IMG/VR virus record: IMGVR_UViG_3300028888_000043
Location: 201,756-265,755 of that record
Length of the DNA: 64,000 nt
Source: a virus
Taxonomy: Duplodnaviria > Heunggongvirae > Uroviricota > Caudoviricetes
Direction: 5' to 3' (one strand)
Every line of letters starts with the position of its first letter. Positions within the stretch are counted from its first letter, which is position 1. Positions 3,477 through 15,663 of the stretch are shown in pieces. A model generated the notes under the pieces. The model was not told the DNA's origin and did not search any database. It saw only the letters and a list, made by a program, of their open reading frames with translations. The translations under genes and the position numbers were made by a program.

Positions 3477-5852
3477 TTAATTTATTGTTATAATAAATCC
3501 ATCATGGCGGTTACCGTCAGATTCATATTTTTGTGTGGATTTGAAGGTATATGTGAGTCTTGTATTGATTGAAAAATGATTTGACTCTGTAAGAGTAACC
3601 TCATCACCATAAAGACTTGTTACAGTAATTTTATCCTTAATGTCTTGACCCAATAAACATATCTTAAAGTTATCAGATCTTTGTGAAAGGTTTATATTGT
3701 ATGAATGGCCATGATCGGATAAGTCAATTTCTGAAATGACATATGCACAATTGTTGTATTGATAAGCGATATTGGAATAAACACATCTTATATTCTGTGA
3801 TTCTTGAATTACAAAATATCTACAGTTTGTTGGATATAAACTGATGACACCAAATTTTAATCTATCCAAATTATTTGGAAGTATTGAAAATCTCAAATGT
3901 GAATATTTCCTTGCAAGTTCATATGTTATATTTTGAAACATTGATACACTATCAAATGCTATGGTTTTTTGTGTGGAGTATATTCCAGAACCATTATAAT
4001 ATCTGTAATAATTTAAGCATTCAAAGGTGACTTCATTGGATGGATAATCCTTTCCTTCATTATAGTCTCCAGTGTAAAATTTTATTGTATTTCCATCTAT
4101 TACAGCAGCACCATCATCAGCACCAATAAATTCAAGGTCTATATTTGTATTATTGGTACTATATGGAATTATATCAACATTACAGAATATTCCAGAATAA
4201 CTTCTGAATCTTATATTACTATAATGTTCAGAATTACCTGATGCATCAACTTTAATTTCTATATCTTCTGATTTTTCAGAATGTATGGTAAATGTACCAG
4301 TAGTATCAACCATCTCATGAGATGTCATACCATATGCGCCTCGTGTTGCTATGAATATTGAATATTCATTACCGATGTTAATTTGAGAACTACATAAACT
4401 GAAATCTCTCTTTTTTCCTGTATAACCTCCTCTATGCTCACTGGTTACAGATACTGTATAATCAAGTAATTGGTGTTTATCATTTGATATTATTATTGGG
4501 AAATAACCTCTCTCTTGATACAAATGTGTTTGTGTACCATCAGTTTCATTATATGATGAAGGCAATGCCATAGCACTGAGGACAACAGTATCATTCAATA
4601 CAACTGTTATGTTCTCATTTACAGTTCCATCTATTGCAACAATCTGGTCAGTATAGTTTTCAGCAGATACCTTTATCCATAATTTTGATAATGGAGTATA
4701 GAACTTATTGTTTCCTGTGAATGTACCATCTTCTGATGTAACTGGTGTCTCACAAGTTTCATCCTTGTACCACTCTATGGTTGCATTTTCATCTGCTGGA
4801 TCAATGGTTATCTCATAAGAGAAATATTCCTTTTCCAGAATTACATCTTTTGTTGATTCATTTTGTGTGAGATGAACTTTGGTAGGTTTGTAAAAACCAT
4901 CAACATGATATGTTACAACTGCCCATACTTCATTTTTAGATGAGTATAGGGTACCAGCTGGGTCATCCTGTGACAAGAACTTATTATTTTCTGTACAGTC
5001 TTCATTAGTATACCAATCTACTGAATAATTATATATATCCATTGGATCTGTTTCATCTGGTTTATATACATTCAAAGTATATTTGTTTGCACCTGATATG
5101 TAAACTTCTGCCCAAGGTAAATCCTTTGTTATTTTTCCAGATGAAGGGGTTACTGTGAAATTATCTATTGGTTCTAACTTGAACCACACTTCTTCATATA
5201 ATGTTTGGTCTAATGAATTTGACCAGATATGTCCATCTACTCCATCTATAATTCTATGTGATTCATCCAAATCGGAATTACTATACCAGGTCAATTCCAT
5301 TGATTTCATAAGTATTAAATCAATGTCTTCTGGGAAGATGGCATAAGAATATTCTTCTACTTCATGGACAGTACCATTAATATTTACTTCAACCTCTTCA
5401 ATTTCAATGGTACCATCAATATGGACTTCAACTTCTTCCTTCTTTACTGTACCTTCAATGTTTACCTCAACATCTTCTTTCTTGACAGTACCCTCAATGT
5501 TTACTTCAATTTCTTCCTTTCTGATACTACCATTGATATTGACTTCAATCTCCTCTTTCTTGACAGTACCCGTGATTTCAACATTCTGTTCTATTGTTTC
5601 TACTACACTTGCAATGTTGAGATTACCTACAATATATACTTTATTACCTTCATTGATTGAACCTTCAATCTTTACTTTATTGGGATCAATGAATCCACGT
5701 ATGGCGTCCCATCCAGTCAGTTCAACTACCTGGAAAGTATCAGACATATTAACCCCAATAACAGGGAGGTTTAATGAAGGGTCATCATACCTCAAAGTCA
5801 AAGGGAATACCTTGTTTGGAACTTTATGTCTGATTCTTATTTTGTAAGTCAT
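3477..5852 (-). CDS. Putative tail fibre/receptor-binding protein
   Basis: 791 aa, beta-rich, 13-aa repeats, Ig-like segments, downstream of baseplate genes. Confidence 0.5.
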   Translation of the reverse strand: MTYKIRIRHKVPNKVFPLTLRYDDPSLNLPVIGVNMSDTFQVVELTGWDAIRGFIDPNKVKIEGSINEGNKVYIVGNLNIASVVETIEQNVEITGTVKKEEIEVNINGSIRKEEIEVNIEGTVKKEDVEVNIEGTVKKEEVEVHIDGTIEIEEVEVNINGTVHEVEEYSYAIFPEDIDLILMKSMELTWYSNSDLDESHRIIDGVDGHIWSNSLDQTLYEEVWFKLEPIDNFTVTPSSGKITKDLPWAEVYISGANKYTLNVYKPDETDPMDIYNYSVDWYTNEDCTENNKFLSQDDPAGTLYSSKNEVWAVVTYHVDGFYKPTKVHLTQNESTKDVILEKEYFSYEITIDPADENATIEWYKDETCETPVTSEDGTFTGNNKFYTPLSKLWIKVSAENYTDQIVAIDGTVNENITVVLNDTVVLSAMALPSSYNETDGTQTHLYQERGYFPIIISNDKHQLLDYTVSVTSEHRGGYTGKKRDFSLCSSQINIGNEYSIFIATRGAYGMTSHEMVDTTGTFTIHSEKSEDIEIKVDASGNSEHYSNIRFRSYSGIFCNVDIIPYSTNNTNIDLEFIGADDGAAVIDGNTIKFYTGDYNEGKDYPSNEVTFECLNYYRYYNGSGIYSTQKTIAFDSVSMFQNITYELARKYSHLRFSILPNNLDRLKFGVISLYPTNCRYFVIQESQNIRCVYSNIAYQYNNCAYVISEIDLSDHGHSYNINLSQRSDNFKICLLGQDIKDKITVTSLYGDEVTLTESNHFSINTRLTYTFKSTQKYESDGNRHDGFIITIN
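5361..5588 (-). repeat. About 6 x 39-bp coding tandem repeat (EVNIEGTVKKEEV)
   Basis: Visible in translation aa ~89-164 of 3477-5852. Confidence 0.85.
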
Positions 5853-14360: not shown

Positions 14361-14380
14361 AAGTATACACTATTATAAGG

Positions 14381-14388
14381 TATTTATG
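14381..14388 (-). promoter_or_regulatory. Late promoter CATAAATA
   Basis: 20 nt upstream of ATG 14360. Confidence 0.75.
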
Positions 14389-14417
14389 AAAAAAGGAATG
14401 ACCTGGGTCATTCCTTT
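14389..14417 (-). terminator. Intrinsic terminator downstream of gp55 and the tRNA-like element
   Basis: AAAGGAATGACC-tg-GGTCATTCCTTT inverted repeat with U-tract. Confidence 0.7.
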
Positions 14418-14447
14418 GAGGTTATATATTTGTTGTTCAAATTAATG

Positions 14448-14580
14448 AGGATATAGAAGGATTGGAACCAACATTCATAATGCAAGAGGATTCGAACCTA
14501 CTATCCCTACCGCTATTAGCCTCGGATTTCCTAAACCATTAGAAGATACATTTGTCTTAACCATTTTAGACGATATATCC
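14448..14580 (-). ncRNA. Nested tRNA-like RNA (tRNA-like insert in anticodon loop of an outer tRNA-like cloverleaf)
   Basis: Two D-arms (GTCT/AGAC, TTCT/AGGA with TGG loops), two T-arms (GGTTCGAATCC, GGTTCCAATCC), acceptor GGATATA/TATATCC. Confidence 0.6.
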
Positions 14581-14622
14581 TCATTATTGACAACTGATAT
14601 ATAATTACTCATTCTGTTTCAA

Positions 14623-15309
14623 TTAGATGTTGTACAAATCGAATGGTTTTCCATTTTCATCCAGACAGGAGATGGAAATCGTTCCATTGTACTTCTTGGG
14701 ATGCAGGATTCTGTGTGCCCCAGCAATTCCAAAATAGGCAATCTGTGAACAGAAAGCAAATGCACTGTTACTTTTTCCATTCAAATCAATGGGTTCATAC
14801 TTCCAGAAATTTGAACAGAGGTCCAGGACTGCATTGGCCTTACAGTCCTGTCCGTCATCTGGGTTAGACCAGTAGAAACTTCTTGAAATGTTTTCTACTA
14901 TGAGTTGAAACATCTTTGCGAGTCTGTCACTGACAATGGGTTTCCTCATCTGGATATCAAGTTTCAGGGCATCCTCCTTGGTCATCTCTCCATTCCTGAC
15001 CATTTCATCGATAACATCCTTGTCATATTCCCTGATCATTCTAACCCAATATGACCTTTCAGGCATATACCCATTCTTTATAGCAAGATTATATTTCTCA
15101 ATCATCTCACTATTGTTACTTGTGAATTTGAATCCGATAGGAAATACAGTCGTTTCTTCATCCTCATCAGATTCACTACCCGGATATGCCCACACTGGAA
15201 GTGATGGATCAAATCCATTAGCAACTGCCTTTTCATAACCATCAGTTATGCATTTTAAAATCTCATCCCTTAATTCTACATTACTTAAATAATTTTTCTT
15301 TTTGGCCAT
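14623..15309 (-). CDS. gp55: Late-transcription sigma factor, T4 gp55-like
   Basis: N-term KKKNYLSNVEL; C-term SAFAFCSQIAYFG matching gp55 NPFAYFTQI; T4-like late boxes across window. Confidence 0.75.
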   Translation of the reverse strand: MAKKKNYLSNVELRDEILKCITDGYEKAVANGFDPSLPVWAYPGSESDEDEETTVFPIGFKFTSNNSEMIEKYNLAIKNGYMPERSYWVRMIREYDKDVIDEMVRNGEMTKEDALKLDIQMRKPIVSDRLAKMFQLIVENISRSFYWSNPDDGQDCKANAVLDLCSNFWKYEPIDLNGKSNSAFAFCSQIAYFGIAGAHRILHPKKYNGTISISCLDENGKPFDLYNI

Positions 15310-15350: not shown

Positions 15351-15355
15351 ATTAA

Positions 15356-15387
15356 AAATGTGGGGATTCATATCAATCCCCACATTT
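15356..15387 (-). terminator. Intrinsic terminator
   Basis: AAATGTGGGGATT-catatc-AATCCCCACATTT directly after stop of 15388-15663. Confidence 0.75.
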
Positions 15388-15663
15388 CTACACATCTATC
15401 TGTAGATTCTTTTTCTGTGTGATGAGTTCTTCATCATCCTTATAACAAGTCACAAATGATTCCGGATCCAGTTGACCGAACTCCGTTGCTGAAACCAATA
15501 CCTTGTCACCTTTTTTGAGACCCTTTACCGGTACCACTACGGTAACTTCGGTATAACCATTTTTCATCATCTTCTTCTTGTTGTGGTTGAGAAGTTCCGC
15601 ATCGGCAGGATTTTCAAGGAAGGTTTCATTGATAAACTCTTTGAAACACTTTACCCTTTCCAT
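15388..15663 (-). CDS. Small putative head-internal protein
   Basis: N-terminus VKCFKEFINE resembles T4 capsid-targeting sequence. Confidence 0.5.
   Translation of the reverse strand: MERVKCFKEFINETFLENPADAELLNHNKKKMMKNGYTEVTVVVPVKGLKKGDKVLVSATEFGQLDPESFVTCYKDDEELITQKKNLQIDV

What the first reader, a model, noticed from the sequence alone, without database searches (positions are those of the whole stretch)
14443..14586. tRNA inside a tRNA: nested cloverleaf RNA downstream of the late sigma gene
Seen on the minus strand: GGATATA TC GTCT-AAAATGGTTA-AGAC A [AATGTA TC TTCT-AATGGTTT-AGGA A ATCC-17 nt-GGAT AGTAGG-TTCGAAT-CCTCT TGCATT] ATGAAT GTTGG-TTCCAAT-CCTTC TATATCC. The outer element (14580-14448) has acceptor, D and T arms. 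Its anticodon stem AATGTA/TGCATT doubles as the acceptor stem of a 74-nt inner tRNA-like unit (14552-14479) with its own D arm and a canonical T loop. The outer stem extends to a perfect 13-bp inverted repeat (14443-14455/14574-14586); no CCA is encoded, both T stems are imperfect and the inner anticodon arm is non-canonical. It lies between the gp55 stop and a terminator, so it is probably transcribed. Inference: a structured ncRNA, for example a decoy for anticodon nucleases, an RNase P/Z processing element controlling gp55 mRNA, or a relic of one tRNA inserted into another.
Basis: partly seen in the sequence, partly recalled or inferred. Interest (0 to 1): 0.82.

Follow-up and report, generated by a model that had tools for sequence, protein, structure and literature searches.

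The report
Mobile nested tRNA-like RNA cassette
The "tRNA inside a tRNA" is real: it is a roughly 190-base mobile DNA cassette, found after unrelated genes in several gut and rumen phages, that encodes a conserved RNA built from two concentric tRNA-shaped units whose function is unknown.

Summary
Standard detectors (ARAGORN default, Rfam) find nothing in the window, but both units are beyond chance. The outer unit is the only extra ARAGORN call in the 411-kb phage genome once the threshold drops 2% in intron mode. The inner unit is the top hit in the 64-kb window (19 bits, E about 1e-3) for a model built from the phage's own tRNAs.

Six close relatives of this jumbo phage lack the element. There the terminator follows the gp55-like stop codon directly, so the element is an insertion. 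I found homologues in:
- a 59-kb Bacteroidales siphophage (93% identical, perfect 8-bp target duplication, empty sites in its relatives);
- a Paludibacteraceae MAG contig;
- a second jumbo-phage lineage (77% identical, both T stems perfect).

The inner unit also occurs alone in the tRNA array of a related jumbo phage, beside a GIY-YIG homing endonuclease, where it passes Rfam's tRNA threshold.

Both "acceptor" helices keep pairing through compensatory changes, and every wobble is G·U on the sense strand.

Verdict: a MITE-like cassette carrying a two-layer, non-decoding tRNA mimic, not a gp55-specific regulator. The RNA's function is unknown. Earlier AI notes of this scan describe nested tRNAs on other DNA (CPR bacteria and some phages); this family is a different variant.

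The parts
14623..15309 (-). Upstream gene, gp55-like late sigma factor (228 aa). The element lies in its 3' untranslated region.
   Evidence: ORF. Weak PHROG hit to 'late sigma transcription factor' (phrog_234, E 3e-4); no Pfam hit. 70-75% identical orthologues in six related phage contigs.
14611..14618 (-). Left copy of a putative 8-bp target-site duplication (AACAGAAT).
   Evidence: Matches 6 of 8 bases of AAAGGAAT on the other side of the element. It is absent from the empty site of relatives (TAATT-CAC-AAAGGAGT...). In L275 the equivalent repeat is perfect.
14418..14610 (-). The whole inserted cassette (193 nt, ends GAG...CTC).
   Evidence: Absent from six relatives. 92.7% identical to L275:5794-5985, which sits in an unrelated 59-kb phage. 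Single copy in this genome.
14589..14610 (-). Left terminal inverted repeat (GAGTAATTATATATCAGTTGTC).
   Evidence: Inverted repeats I1 and I2. Homologous to the L275 end GGGAACTATATATCAGTTGTCC, which matches its partner end at 17 of 22 positions (my count from the two end sequences printed).
14418..14438 (-). Right terminal inverted repeat (GAACAACAAATATATAACCTC).
14574..14580 (-). Outer unit, acceptor stem 5' strand (GGATATA). It pairs with 14449-14455.
   Evidence: Perfect 7 bp. 100% paired in homologues, with 3 double and 4 single compatible changes across the 9-pair helix.
14554..14571 (-). Outer unit D arm (GTCT-AAAATGGTTA-AGAC).
   Evidence: Perfect 4-bp stem. It appears in the minimum-free-energy and centroid folds and in the ARAGORN drawing. 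The stem is invariant in homologues.
14479..14552 (-). Inner tRNA-like unit: acceptor AATGTA/TGCATT, D arm TTCT/AGGA, an irregular 'anticodon' arm, and T arm AG(T)AGG-TTCGAAT-CCTCT.
   Evidence: 19.2 bits, E 1e-3 with the own-tRNA model R1, top hit in the window. 100 bits with the family model R2. Homologous to the free-standing unit L277:9830-9906, which scores 36.3 bits against Rfam tRNA (gathering score 29).
14503..14527 (-). Inner 'anticodon' arm: ATCC / GAG-GCT-AAT-AGC-GGTAG / GGAT. This is the most conserved block of the family.
   Evidence: Nearly invariant in all homologues; only two loop positions vary. tRNA models skip it as a local end. The minimum-free-energy fold of the solo unit gives a 4-bp stem, an internal loop and a 3-bp mini-hairpin.
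14456..14472 (-). Outer unit T arm (GTTGG-TTCCAAT-CCTTC). It has two U-U mismatches here.
   Evidence: The same arm is a perfect 5 bp (GAAGG/CCTTC) in L238 and L312.
14449..14455 (-). Outer unit acceptor stem 3' strand (TATATCC). No CCA follows.
14392..14417 (-). Resident intrinsic terminator of the gp55-like gene (AAAGGAATGACC-CA-GGTCATTCCTTT, then a T run). Its first 8 bases are the right copy of the target duplication.
   Evidence: 12-bp perfect inverted repeat I4. An equivalent hairpin plus T run, with different stem sequences, follows the stop codon directly in all six relatives. The terminator scanner missed it because its loop is only 2 nt.

Best explanation
The feature is a small non-autonomous mobile DNA cassette of about 190 bp, MITE-like, with 22-nt imperfect terminal inverted repeats and an 8-bp target duplication. 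It inserted between the stop codon and the terminator of the gp55-like gene of this 411-kb jumbo phage.

Its cargo is a conserved RNA gene built from two concentric tRNA-shaped units. The inner unit descends from an odd tRNA-family gene that sits in the tRNA arrays of related jumbo phages. It has normal acceptor, D and T arms but a non-decoding 'anticodon' arm. That unit sits where the anticodon arm of a paralogous outer unit should be, so the inner acceptor helix continues the outer D/anticodon stack.

Shown: the cassette is an insertion, it has moved between unrelated phages, it always lies in the sense orientation just after a gene, and its two long-range helices are kept by compensatory changes.

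Inferred:
- It is transcribed by read-through from the upstream gene.
- The RNA folds as a double cloverleaf.
- The host's tRNA-maturation enzymes (RNase P at the 5' side, RNase Z or exonucleases at the 3' side) probably cut it out.
- The released product would then be a stable tRNA mimic that cannot decode.
- What the mimic does is not known. It could titrate or decoy a tRNA-binding factor, or only help the cassette to be tolerated.
For: (1) Insertion. Six relatives (gp55 70-75% identical) have the terminator 4-8 nt after the stop codon and no element.

(2) Mobility.
- The same element at 92.7% identity sits in a 59-kb, 55% GC siphophage between a 260-aa gene and a ParB_N gene, although the element itself is only 37% GC.
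- There it is flanked by a perfect 8-bp repeat, AAACAATA. Three relatives of that phage have the empty site, with 2-8 nt between the stop codon and the ATG.
- A further copy lies directly after a stop codon in a Paludibacteraceae MAG contig.
- A 77% identical copy lies in a second jumbo-phage lineage, and homologues of its neighbouring gene lack it.

(3) tRNA likeness. See ARAGORN near threshold, own-tRNA model R1 and Rfam tRNA at 36.3 bits for the free-standing homologue.

(4) RNA-level selection.
- 92-93% of cells are paired, and 7-8 pairs carry changes on both sides, against 3-4 in shuffles and 0-4 in slid controls.
- The outer acceptor helix is 100% paired.
- All wobble cells in the two acceptor helices are G·U or U·G on the sense strand, none A·C.
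- Both T stems are perfect in L238.

(5) Orientation. The element is co-oriented with the flanking genes, or with the tRNAs, in all five contexts.

(6) Not protein-coding. Two indels shift the frame of the overlapping 45-aa ORF in L238 while the nucleotides between them stay conserved.
Against: - No transcript or processing data exist.
- There are only four independent sequence types (five with the L312 variant), so the covariation rests on few events.
- The D and T stems are invariant and therefore uninformative.
- In the window copy the outer T stem has two U-U mismatches, and neither Rfam nor default ARAGORN sees a tRNA.
- The whole-element fold energy is not exceptional.
- The element is single-copy in this genome, unlike classical MITEs, and no transposase with matching ends was found.
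- The window's target duplication is imperfect (6 of 8).
- The L238/L312 copies lack the outer 15 nt of the terminal repeat, so transposition is not proven for them.
- The long basal stem that pairs leader with trailer could hinder RNase P.
- The 4-bp stem of the inner 'anticodon' arm is broken in L238 (U-C) and in L312 (C-A).
Confidence: 0.6

Rival explanations
1. Selfish relic. The nest is only the scar of a 'disrupt and replace' event, in which a homing-endonuclease-linked tRNA-like cassette landed in a paralogous tRNA-like gene. It was later caught between two inverted end motifs. It now spreads or hitch-hikes as junk DNA, and the RNA has no function.
For: - The free-standing inner-type unit lies 22 nt upstream of a GIY-YIG homing endonuclease in the tRNA array of a related phage.
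- The window copy has degenerate features: U-U mismatches in the outer T stem, a 6-bp inner acceptor, no canonical anticodon arm.
- Close relatives do without it.
- It is single-copy.
Against: - A dead shell should decay. Instead the outer acceptor helix is 100% paired across 77%-identical copies, with three double compensatory changes and only G·U wobbles, and the outer T stem is perfect in L238/L312.
- The inner 'anticodon' block is nearly invariant while the stems change.
- Sense orientation is kept in five of five contexts.
Confidence: 0.22
2. Cis-acting mRNA end element. The tRNA-like fold is used in place, as in plant mitochondrial t-elements or MALAT1/mascRNA. RNase P/Z cleavage there would define or stabilise the 3' end of the upstream mRNA (here gp55), so the benefit goes to the host gene.
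For: The element is always found 0-19 nt after a stop codon. In the window and in L238/L312 it lies upstream of an intrinsic terminator. tRNA-like t-elements are reported to contribute to mRNA 5' and 3' end formation in plant mitochondria (title and abstract of PMC1920247, as listed).
Against: The upstream genes are unrelated: a gp55-like sigma factor, a 260-aa protein, a 281-aa secreted-type protein and a 74-aa or longer ORF. Relatives of each carrier manage without the element and end the same genes at an ordinary terminator or at the next start codon. This does not explain why two nested units are kept.
Confidence: 0.1
3. Decoding or suppressor tRNA in disguise. The inner unit is a working tRNA with an expanded 8-nt anticodon loop. 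ARAGORN reads CUAA in the solo unit and UUCA in the G001 orthologue. Such a tRNA could be a stop-codon or quadruplet reader, delivered by the cassette.
For: - Below its default threshold (95% for the G001 orthologue, 90% for the solo unit), ARAGORN draws both orthologous genes with 8-nt loops and 4-base anticodons.
- The only variable positions of the conserved block fall in that loop.
- The C-A break of the 4-bp stem in L312 is harmless under this fold.
Against: - In the inner unit that anticodon stem has only three Watson-Crick pairs flanked by mismatches.
- U33 is missing.
- The nested copies have 4-6-bp acceptor stems that open with mismatches.
- Long ORFs in the window read normally under code 11.
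Confidence: 0.05
4. Chance resemblance, or a small protein gene (the 45-aa ORF at 14475-14612).
For: The default detectors are silent and the fold z-score is only -1.1. An ATG-started 45-aa ORF overlaps the element.
Against: Homologues are conserved at the nucleotide level but not the protein level. Covariation is present. The free-standing homologue passes Rfam's tRNA threshold. The ORF matches no family.
Confidence: 0.03

Closest known systems
Bacterial MITEs (for example Correia elements of Neisseria) and the virus-borne 'vMITEs' (bioRxiv 10.1101/2024.01.18.576219)
   Same: Small size, no protein, terminal inverted repeats, short target duplication, intergenic insertion with filled and empty sites, co-transcription with neighbouring genes, and sharing between different genomes. 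The preprint abstract reports MITE counterparts in 2,798 viral sequences and a deeper analysis of the Bacteroidetes group.
   Different: Classical MITEs are multi-copy in cellular genomes, and their interior is a long imperfect palindrome or a deleted IS. This element is single-copy per phage. I found it only on phage contigs and one unclassified MAG contig, and not in 150 other genomes of the order of that MAG. Its interior is a conserved double tRNA-like fold with covariation. No partner transposase is known.
Free-standing GIY-YIG homing endonucleases in phage tRNA clusters (T4 SegB; PMC2330249, PMC13096335)
   Same: The free-standing inner-type unit lies in a jumbo-phage tRNA array, immediately upstream of a GIY-YIG/Seg-like homing endonuclease (phrog_314, E 3e-36). 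Unit and endonuclease are present in one relative and absent from this genome.
   Different: The nested cassette in the window has no endonuclease next to it, and this genome has no homologue of that endonuclease. It carries a target duplication and inverted ends, which homing does not produce.
tRNA-like elements used at mRNA ends: plant mitochondrial t-elements (PMC1920247), MALAT1 mascRNA (own knowledge)
   Same: A tRNA-shaped module embedded in a longer transcript just beyond the coding region, and a plausible substrate for RNase P and RNase Z.
   Different: Those are single cloverleaf-like modules fixed at one locus. This one has two layers, is mobile, and is dispensable for each carrier gene.
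tRNA-mimic non-coding RNAs: bacterial and phage YrlA (Y RNA-like) and T4 stable RNA species 1 and 2 (own knowledge)
   Same: Non-decoding RNAs that keep the acceptor, T and D architecture of a tRNA and are encoded by phages or next to tRNA genes.
   Different: YrlA is circularly permuted relative to a tRNA and carries a Ro-binding helix. No Rfam family other than tRNA matches here. None of these is nested or mobile.
Earlier AI notes of this scan on 'matryoshka' tRNA genes in Patescibacteria and some phages (e1-1548212, e1-5215347, e1-5286830)
   Same: One tRNA-type unit sits where the anticodon arm of a second, related unit should be, clamped by complementary arms, with links to small hairpin-ended cassettes and GIY-YIG genes.
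   Different: In those notes an intact decoding tRNA replaces a resident tRNA gene of the same isotype, at a tRNA locus. Here neither unit is a canonical tRNA. The whole nest is the mobile unit, and it lands in the 3' UTRs of protein genes. Those notes are unverified leads.
tRNA genes interrupted in the anticodon loop by group I introns (bacteria) or bulge-helix-bulge introns (archaea)
   Same: An insertion within the anticodon region of a tRNA-shaped gene. ARAGORN's intron mode models the outer unit that way.
   Different: The insert is 62-74 nt, too short for a group I ribozyme (own knowledge), and there is no group I hit in Rfam. ARAGORN places the insert before the anticodon rather than at the canonical position just after it, and the 'anticodon loop' it builds has a pyrimidine at position 37. 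The phage carries a tmRNA, which points to a bacterial host.

Membership tests
tRNA (Rfam RF00005 / ARAGORN) | Score at or above the curated threshold of a tRNA covariance model or detector | tested here: not met
   Window copy: no Rfam tRNA hit even at E<=10, and no ARAGORN call at default settings. The own-tRNA model gives 19.2 bits, against 33-86 bits for the real tRNAs. The free-standing homologue L277:9830-9905 does pass Rfam (36.3 bits, gathering score 29).
tRNA (Rfam RF00005 / ARAGORN) | Acceptor stem, D arm with a GG loop, and T arm with a TTCRANY loop in the canonical order | tested here: met
   Both units have them. The inner T loop is TTCGAAT. The outer is TTCCAAT, with a pyrimidine at position 57.
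tRNA (Rfam RF00005 / ARAGORN) | 5-bp anticodon stem with a 7-nt loop (U33, purine 37) | tested here: not met
   The models replace the arm by a local end in every family member. By hand I found no 5-bp stem closing a 7-nt loop in any register of the solo unit's arm (sequence). The alternatives are a 4-bp stem plus a 17-nt loop, or 3 Watson-Crick pairs plus an 8-nt loop.
MITE (non-autonomous transposon) | Small, non-coding, with terminal inverted repeats | tested here: met
   193 nt. The ends are 22-nt imperfect inverted repeats. The overlapping ORF is not conserved as a protein.
MITE (non-autonomous transposon) | Target-site duplication, with filled and empty sites | tested here: met
   L275 has a perfect 8-bp AAACAATA on both sides, present once in the empty sites of L297, L299 and L301. 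The window has AACAGAAT / AAAGGAAT (6 of 8) and empty sites in six relatives.
MITE (non-autonomous transposon) | Multiple copies per genome and a related autonomous IS or transposase with the same ends | tested here: not met
   Single copy in G000. No IS was found. The 22-nt end motif recurs three more times only in MAG G007, without the cargo. A full search for a transposase was not possible.
Intron-containing tRNA (group I or bulge-helix-bulge) | Insert at or near the canonical anticodon-loop position, with a ribozyme core or a bulge-helix-bulge motif, leaving a functional tRNA after removal | tested here: not met
   After removing the inner unit, 59 nt remain with no anticodon arm, and ARAGORN finds nothing in that sequence. 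No group I family hit. A bulge-helix-bulge motif was not specifically tested.
Homing-endonuclease-borne tRNA cassette (SegB type) | A GIY-YIG or HNH endonuclease gene adjacent to the tRNA-type unit | tested here: not met
   Met only for the free-standing unit in G006. The neighbours in the window are the gp55-like gene and a 428-aa protein conserved in four of the six relatives, with no nuclease domains. This genome has no homologue of the endonuclease.
Structured RNA under selection | Base pairs kept through compensatory substitutions beyond the controls | tested here: met
   8 pairs with changes on both sides, against a shuffled mean of 3.0 (0 of 500 shuffles reach it) and 0-4 in slid controls. 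With L312 added: 7 pairs, 7 of 500 shuffles, slid controls 0-3. Only 4-6 sequences, so support is modest.

The most novel reading that the evidence does not exclude
The element represents an undescribed class of phage-borne mobile RNA genes: a transposon-like cassette whose payload is a two-layer tRNA mimic. Inserted behind any expressed gene, it would use the host's own tRNA-processing enzymes to release a stable non-decoding tRNA-shaped RNA. That RNA could, for example, soak up a tRNA-targeting defence nuclease or another tRNA-binding factor. The conserved GAG/GGUAG internal loop would be the functional site. On this reading it is a portable anti-defence or translation-modulating RNA that moves between unrelated Bacteroidales phages.
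Probability: 0.2. Interest if true: 0.88.

Novelty: new variant of a known kind. Interest (0 to 1): 0.72.

Why it matters
If the reading is right, phages exchange small structured RNA genes, not only protein 'morons', packaged as transposon-like cassettes that can be expressed from any 3' UTR. The family would give three things:
- a natural example of a tRNA scaffold reused as a non-decoding RNA;
- a rare case in which a nested, double-elbow tRNA architecture is kept by selection;
- a link between the odd tRNA-family genes and homing endonucleases of jumbo-phage tRNA arrays and a separate mode of mobility.

It is also a practical warning. tRNA-derived elements like this are invisible to default tRNA and Rfam annotation.

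Tried and rejected
- ARAGORN at very relaxed thresholds (80%) is meaningless. It makes 791 calls in 411 kb. I used only the 96-98% result.
- BLASTN of the region against GenBank phages found no match.
- An exact 20-mer of the inner T arm found nothing in IMG/VR.
- A scan for two T-arm motifs 12-30 nt apart is confounded by class II tRNAs with anticodons CGA or CAA, whose anticodon loop mimics a T loop.
- A scan for tandem D-arm motifs returned only coding repeats.
- A pattern specific to the outer T arm returned one unrelated coding hit.
- A looser pattern (GGTAGGGA followed by a T arm) returned ordinary tRNAs plus L255.
- L256, which shares the 18-mer of the conserved block, has no tRNA-like surroundings and was treated as coincidence.
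- I looked for a free-standing copy in this genome's own tRNA cluster and found none. The contig ends lie inside that cluster, so absence is not proven.
- I looked for the family in 150 other genomes of the order of the MAG that carries L274 and found none.
- I tested whether the 22-nt end motif flanks another cassette in MAG G007, contig C94. One of the two copies lies in the end of a coding region, so I do not claim a second cassette.
- Rejected as explanations: group I or archaeal intron, YrlA-type permuted tRNA mimic, attP/attB duplication (which would give tandem rather than nested halves), and a small protein gene.
Full report
**1. Observation**

The 13-bp perfect inverted repeat (14443-14455 / 14574-14586) is real. 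A second arm pair of 15 nt, 87% complementary, at 14422-14436 / 14590-14604 extends it.

ARAGORN at default settings finds no tRNA anywhere in the window. Rfam finds nothing at gathering thresholds and no tRNA-clan hit even at E<=10 on the 600 nt around the element. The minimum free energy of the whole element is ordinary (z = -1.1). By the standard detectors, then, the finding would be dismissed.

**2. Is it more than chance?**

The window belongs to a 411,604-bp IMG/VR phage record with 39% GC. It carries 39 tRNA genes and a tmRNA, clustered at the contig ends about 200 kb from the element.

ARAGORN's intron mode at a strongly relaxed threshold is useless, giving 791 calls per genome. A threshold series is informative, however. 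At 98% and 96% of the default score the outer unit is the only call added to the 39 true tRNAs in the whole genome.

I then built a covariance model (R1) from 27 class I tRNAs of the same phage and ran it without filters over the 64-kb window. The inner unit is the top hit at 19.2 bits (E about 1e-3). The next best hit scores 10.3 bits.

The 5' halves of the two units are more alike (score 10) than either is to any of the 39 tRNAs (best 8 and 5; about 0.2% of shuffles reach this score). The two layers therefore look like paralogues. Both units are beyond chance.

**3. It is an insertion**

The upstream ORF (14623-15309) is a weak match to the T4-type late sigma factor (phrog_234, E 3e-4; no Pfam hit).

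Six viral contigs encode 70-75% identical orthologues. In all six the stop codon is followed within 4-8 nt by a terminator hairpin and T run. Each hairpin has a different but self-complementary stem. A conserved CATAAATAC motif comes next; the gene beyond it is the 428-aa orthologue in four of the six contigs and a different gene in L002 and L007. None of the six has the element.

The window has the same terminator (14392-17), the same motif and the 428-aa gene. The element is therefore a lineage-specific insertion of about 200 bp in the 3' UTR. It is single-copy in this genome and is absent from the five relatives' records searched.

**4. Homologues elsewhere**

Several exact-pattern scans failed or were confounded. 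A scan of metagenome contigs for the two T loops then found two real homologues among about 80 unrelated hits. Follow-up gave this family:

(a) L275, L276 and L200 come from a 59-kb, 55% GC siphophage with ParB_N, PAPS-reductase-like, terminase and SPP1-type portal genes. The element is 92.7% identical to the window copy over 193 columns and has 37% GC. It fills the 206-nt gap between a 260-aa gene and the ParB_N gene.

(b) L274 is a contig of a yak-rumen Paludibacteraceae MAG. The element starts directly after a stop codon, and the contig ends inside it.

(c) L238 and L312 come from a second jumbo-phage lineage whose contigs reach 360 kb. The copy is 77-78% identical and sits between the stop codon of a 281-aa gene and a terminator.

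(d) L255, L277 and G006 are a 153-kb fragment of a jumbo phage related to ours, with a nearly identical tmRNA tag peptide. Here only the inner unit is present. It is a free-standing gene inside the tRNA array on the tRNA strand, with a perfect 7-bp acceptor stem, TATGGTA/TACCATA.

That free-standing unit scores 35.5 bits with R1. It scores 36.3 bits with Rfam's tRNA model, above the gathering score of 29. ARAGORN does not call it at default settings. It lies 22 nt upstream of a 235-aa GIY-YIG/Seg-like homing endonuclease (Pfam weak; phrog_314 E 3e-36).

Another relative, G001, has an orthologous gene with the same acceptor and T arms but a different D arm and anticodon arm, the latter with an 8-nt loop.

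Our genome has neither the free-standing unit nor the endonuclease. Its contig ends do fall inside the tRNA cluster, so absence is not proven.

**5. Mobility**

In L275 the element runs from GGGAAC... to ...AATCCC. The two 22-nt ends match each other at 17 of 22 positions as inverted repeats (my count from the end sequences). The element is flanked by a perfect 8-bp direct repeat, AAACAATA.

Three relatives of that phage (ParB 84%, 70% and 67% identical) have the empty site. There is one copy of the target, and the next gene starts 2-8 nt after the stop codon.

In the window the ends are GAG...CTC, and the flanking octamers are AACAGAAT and AAAGGAAT (6 of 8 matching). The second octamer is part of the resident terminator stem. 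Removing the element and one octamer restores the arrangement seen in the relatives.

For the L238/L312 lineage, homologues of the upstream gene (49-62% identical) leave 10-70 nt before the next gene, and the family model finds nothing there. These copies lack the outer 15 nt of the terminal repeat, and I could not define a target duplication for them.

So there are two filled-versus-empty comparisons at syntenic sites (the window and L275). A third comparison is looser, because the neighbouring genes differ (L238/L312). There is also one clean duplication, and near-identical copies occur in genomes of 39%, 43% and 55% GC. That is the signature of a small non-autonomous transposable cassette.

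I found no transposase. The 22-nt end motif recurs three more times, without the cargo and at gene ends, only in the MAG that carries L274. The reversed-pattern control gave about 0.03 hits per genome. That motif may be a native repeat of that phage or host, so recombination at such repeats remains an alternative route of spread.

The family model R2 found no member in 150 other genomes of the order of that MAG.

**6. Structure and selection**

I aligned the nests and the free-standing unit (A2 and A4) and counted pairs for the double-cloverleaf structure.

- On A2, 92.7% of cells are paired. Eight pairs carry changes on both sides, against 3.0 in shuffles (0 of 500 shuffles reach this) and 0-4 when the partner column is slid.
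- With L312 added (A4), 92.3% of cells are paired. Seven pairs carry double changes (7 of 500 shuffles reach this), and slid controls give 0-3.

The signal lies in the two long-range helices:

- The outer acceptor helix (9 pairs) is 100% paired, with three double and four single compatible changes.
- The inner acceptor helix has three double changes. It reads AATGTA/TGCATT in the window, CACA/TGTG in L238 and TATGGTA/TACCATA in the solo unit.

All wobble cells in these helices are G·U or U·G on the sense strand, none A·C. That argues for selection on the RNA rather than on a DNA inverted repeat.

Both T stems are perfect in L238 and L312 (AGAGG/CCTCT and GAAGG/CCTTC). The window's inner T stem is perfect if T14500 is a bulge; that position is C in L312 and absent in L238 and the solo unit. 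The D and T stems never vary and so carry no information.

The element is co-oriented with its neighbours in all five contexts.

The overlapping 45-aa ORF is not a gene. In L238 a 2-nt deletion and a 1-nt deletion shift the frame across the block that is best conserved at the nucleotide level.

**7. The inner 'anticodon' arm**

This is the most conserved part of the family: (A/G/U)UCC-GAG-GCU-NAN-AGC-GGUAG-GGA(U/C). tRNA models skip it.

The minimum-free-energy fold of the solo unit is a clean cloverleaf. In that fold the arm is a 4-bp stem, an asymmetric GAG/GGUAG internal loop and a 3-bp hairpin with a triloop. Positions 1 and 3 of the triloop are the only variable bases. One pair of the 4-bp stem covaries (A-U to G-C). 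The stem is broken in L238 (U-C) and in L312 (C-A).

ARAGORN's sub-threshold alternative is a 3-bp CCG/CGG stem with an 8-nt loop and a four-base 'anticodon' CUAA. I cannot decide between the two folds. Either way the arm is not a canonical decoding arm.

L238 and L312 share identical shells but differ at several positions inside the inner unit. This suggests exchange or conversion of the inner core between copies.

**8. Best explanation**

The feature is a MITE-like cassette whose cargo is a two-layer tRNA mimic. The mimic derives from an odd tRNA-family gene of jumbo-phage tRNA arrays.

Shown:
- It is an insertion.
- It has transferred between unrelated phages.
- It has inverted ends and a target duplication.
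- It is always in sense orientation after a gene.
- Its two long-range helices are maintained by compensation.

Inferred:
- It is transcribed by read-through of the gp55-like gene. A terminator-like site at 15353-15390 lies upstream of that gene, so the gene and the element probably form their own transcription unit.
- It folds as a double cloverleaf.
- RNase P and RNase Z release it.
- It acts as a non-decoding tRNA mimic.

The function of that RNA is unknown.

'Structured ncRNA' and 'one tRNA inserted into another' hold. 'Controls gp55 mRNA' is unlikely, because relatives lack the element and other carriers place it after unrelated genes. 'Anticodon-nuclease decoy' is untested and is not favoured in that exact form, because there is no canonical anticodon loop.

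**9. Comparison with what is known**

The closest kinds are:
- bacterial and viral MITEs (abstract of the bioRxiv preprint);
- homing-endonuclease cassettes of phage tRNA clusters, namely T4 SegB (abstracts of PMC2330249 and PMC13096335);
- tRNA-like processing modules in mRNAs, such as plant mitochondrial t-elements (PMC1920247);
- tRNA-mimic ncRNAs such as YrlA (own knowledge).

None of these combines a nested, covarying double tRNA fold with transposon-like mobility. My literature searches found no description of such an element, but they were limited.

Earlier AI notes of this scan describe nested tRNA genes in Patescibacteria and 'some phages'. They gave me the lead to check the ORF next to the free-standing unit. 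They differ from this case in that an intact decoding tRNA replaces a resident tRNA gene. I did not verify those notes.

**10. Verdict**

I classify the feature as a new variant of a known kind: a MITE-like cassette with a tRNA-mimic payload. Interest is 0.72. The evidence is limited by the small number of independent sequences and the lack of expression data.

Noticed in passing
L279:1501-1572 (G001:C1:245039-245110): The related 344-kb phage has an orthologue of the free-standing unit, with the same acceptor and T arms and the same upstream flank. It has a well-paired 5-bp anticodon stem and an 8-nt loop, CAUUCAGU. ARAGORN at 95% of its default threshold reads a four-base anticodon UUCA, labelled 'Glu|SeC'. 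It may be an opal-suppressor-like or quadruplet-type phage tRNA.
   Followed up: partly
L033:6441-6513, L033:1424-1504, L033:5-61, L034:2881-2949, L034:4763-4823 (genome tRNA cluster, outside the window): The own-tRNA covariance model finds further tRNA-like genes in this phage's tRNA cluster at 24-53 bits that ARAGORN does not call. ARAGORN also reports odd members: a tRNA with a 4-base anticodon (tcgc), an 88-nt tRNA-Gln and an 80-nt tRNA-Met. A phage tmRNA lies at genome position 407229-407573.
   Followed up: no
L108 (IMGVR_UViG_3300020050_006487), reverse strand, about 110 nt upstream of reverse-complement position 4319 to about 60 nt downstream; also L106, L099, L070, L090: Other viral contigs carry tRNA genes with short inserts (23-66 nt) that ARAGORN's intron mode calls at its default threshold. 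In L108 a complete tRNA-like unit with a truncated anticodon arm sits just 5' of the T arm of an outer unit that has perfect acceptor, D and T stems. This may be a second, unrelated 'tRNA in tRNA'. L106 is a clean tRNA-His(GTG) with a 48-nt insert after the anticodon.
   Followed up: partly
L303 (G007:C100:592-613) and L306 (G007:C94:3238-3259, plus L306:1087-1108): The 22-nt end motif of the cassette (GGGAAYTATATAYNWGTTGTCC) recurs three more times in the Paludibacteraceae MAG that carries L274. Each copy is at a gene end and has no tRNA-like cargo. Only three other hits appeared in the 400 other genomes of the order, close to the control rate of about 0.03 per genome. It may be a repeat native to that phage or host, or the footprint of related cassettes.
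   Followed up: partly
window 14362-14417 and the equivalent sites in L002-L007: The terminator hairpin after the gp55-like gene has a different but self-complementary stem in every relative, which is natural covariation. It is followed by an invariant TTTTTTCATAAATAC, which resembles the T4-type late promoter TATAAATA, upstream of the next gene.
   Followed up: no
L275:11720-12603: The 59-kb siphophage that carries the element encodes a 985-aa protein with an ADP-ribosyltransferase exotoxin-type domain (PF03496) immediately after its portal gene. Upstream it also has radical SAM, MazG, VRR-NUC and a sodium:solute symporter-family gene.
   Followed up: no
window 14623-15309: The 'gp55' label rests on a weak PHROG hit only (E 3e-4, no Pfam hit). 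The protein is 228 aa; T4 gp55 is 185 aa (own knowledge). The assignment is plausible from context but not firmly established here.
   Followed up: partly
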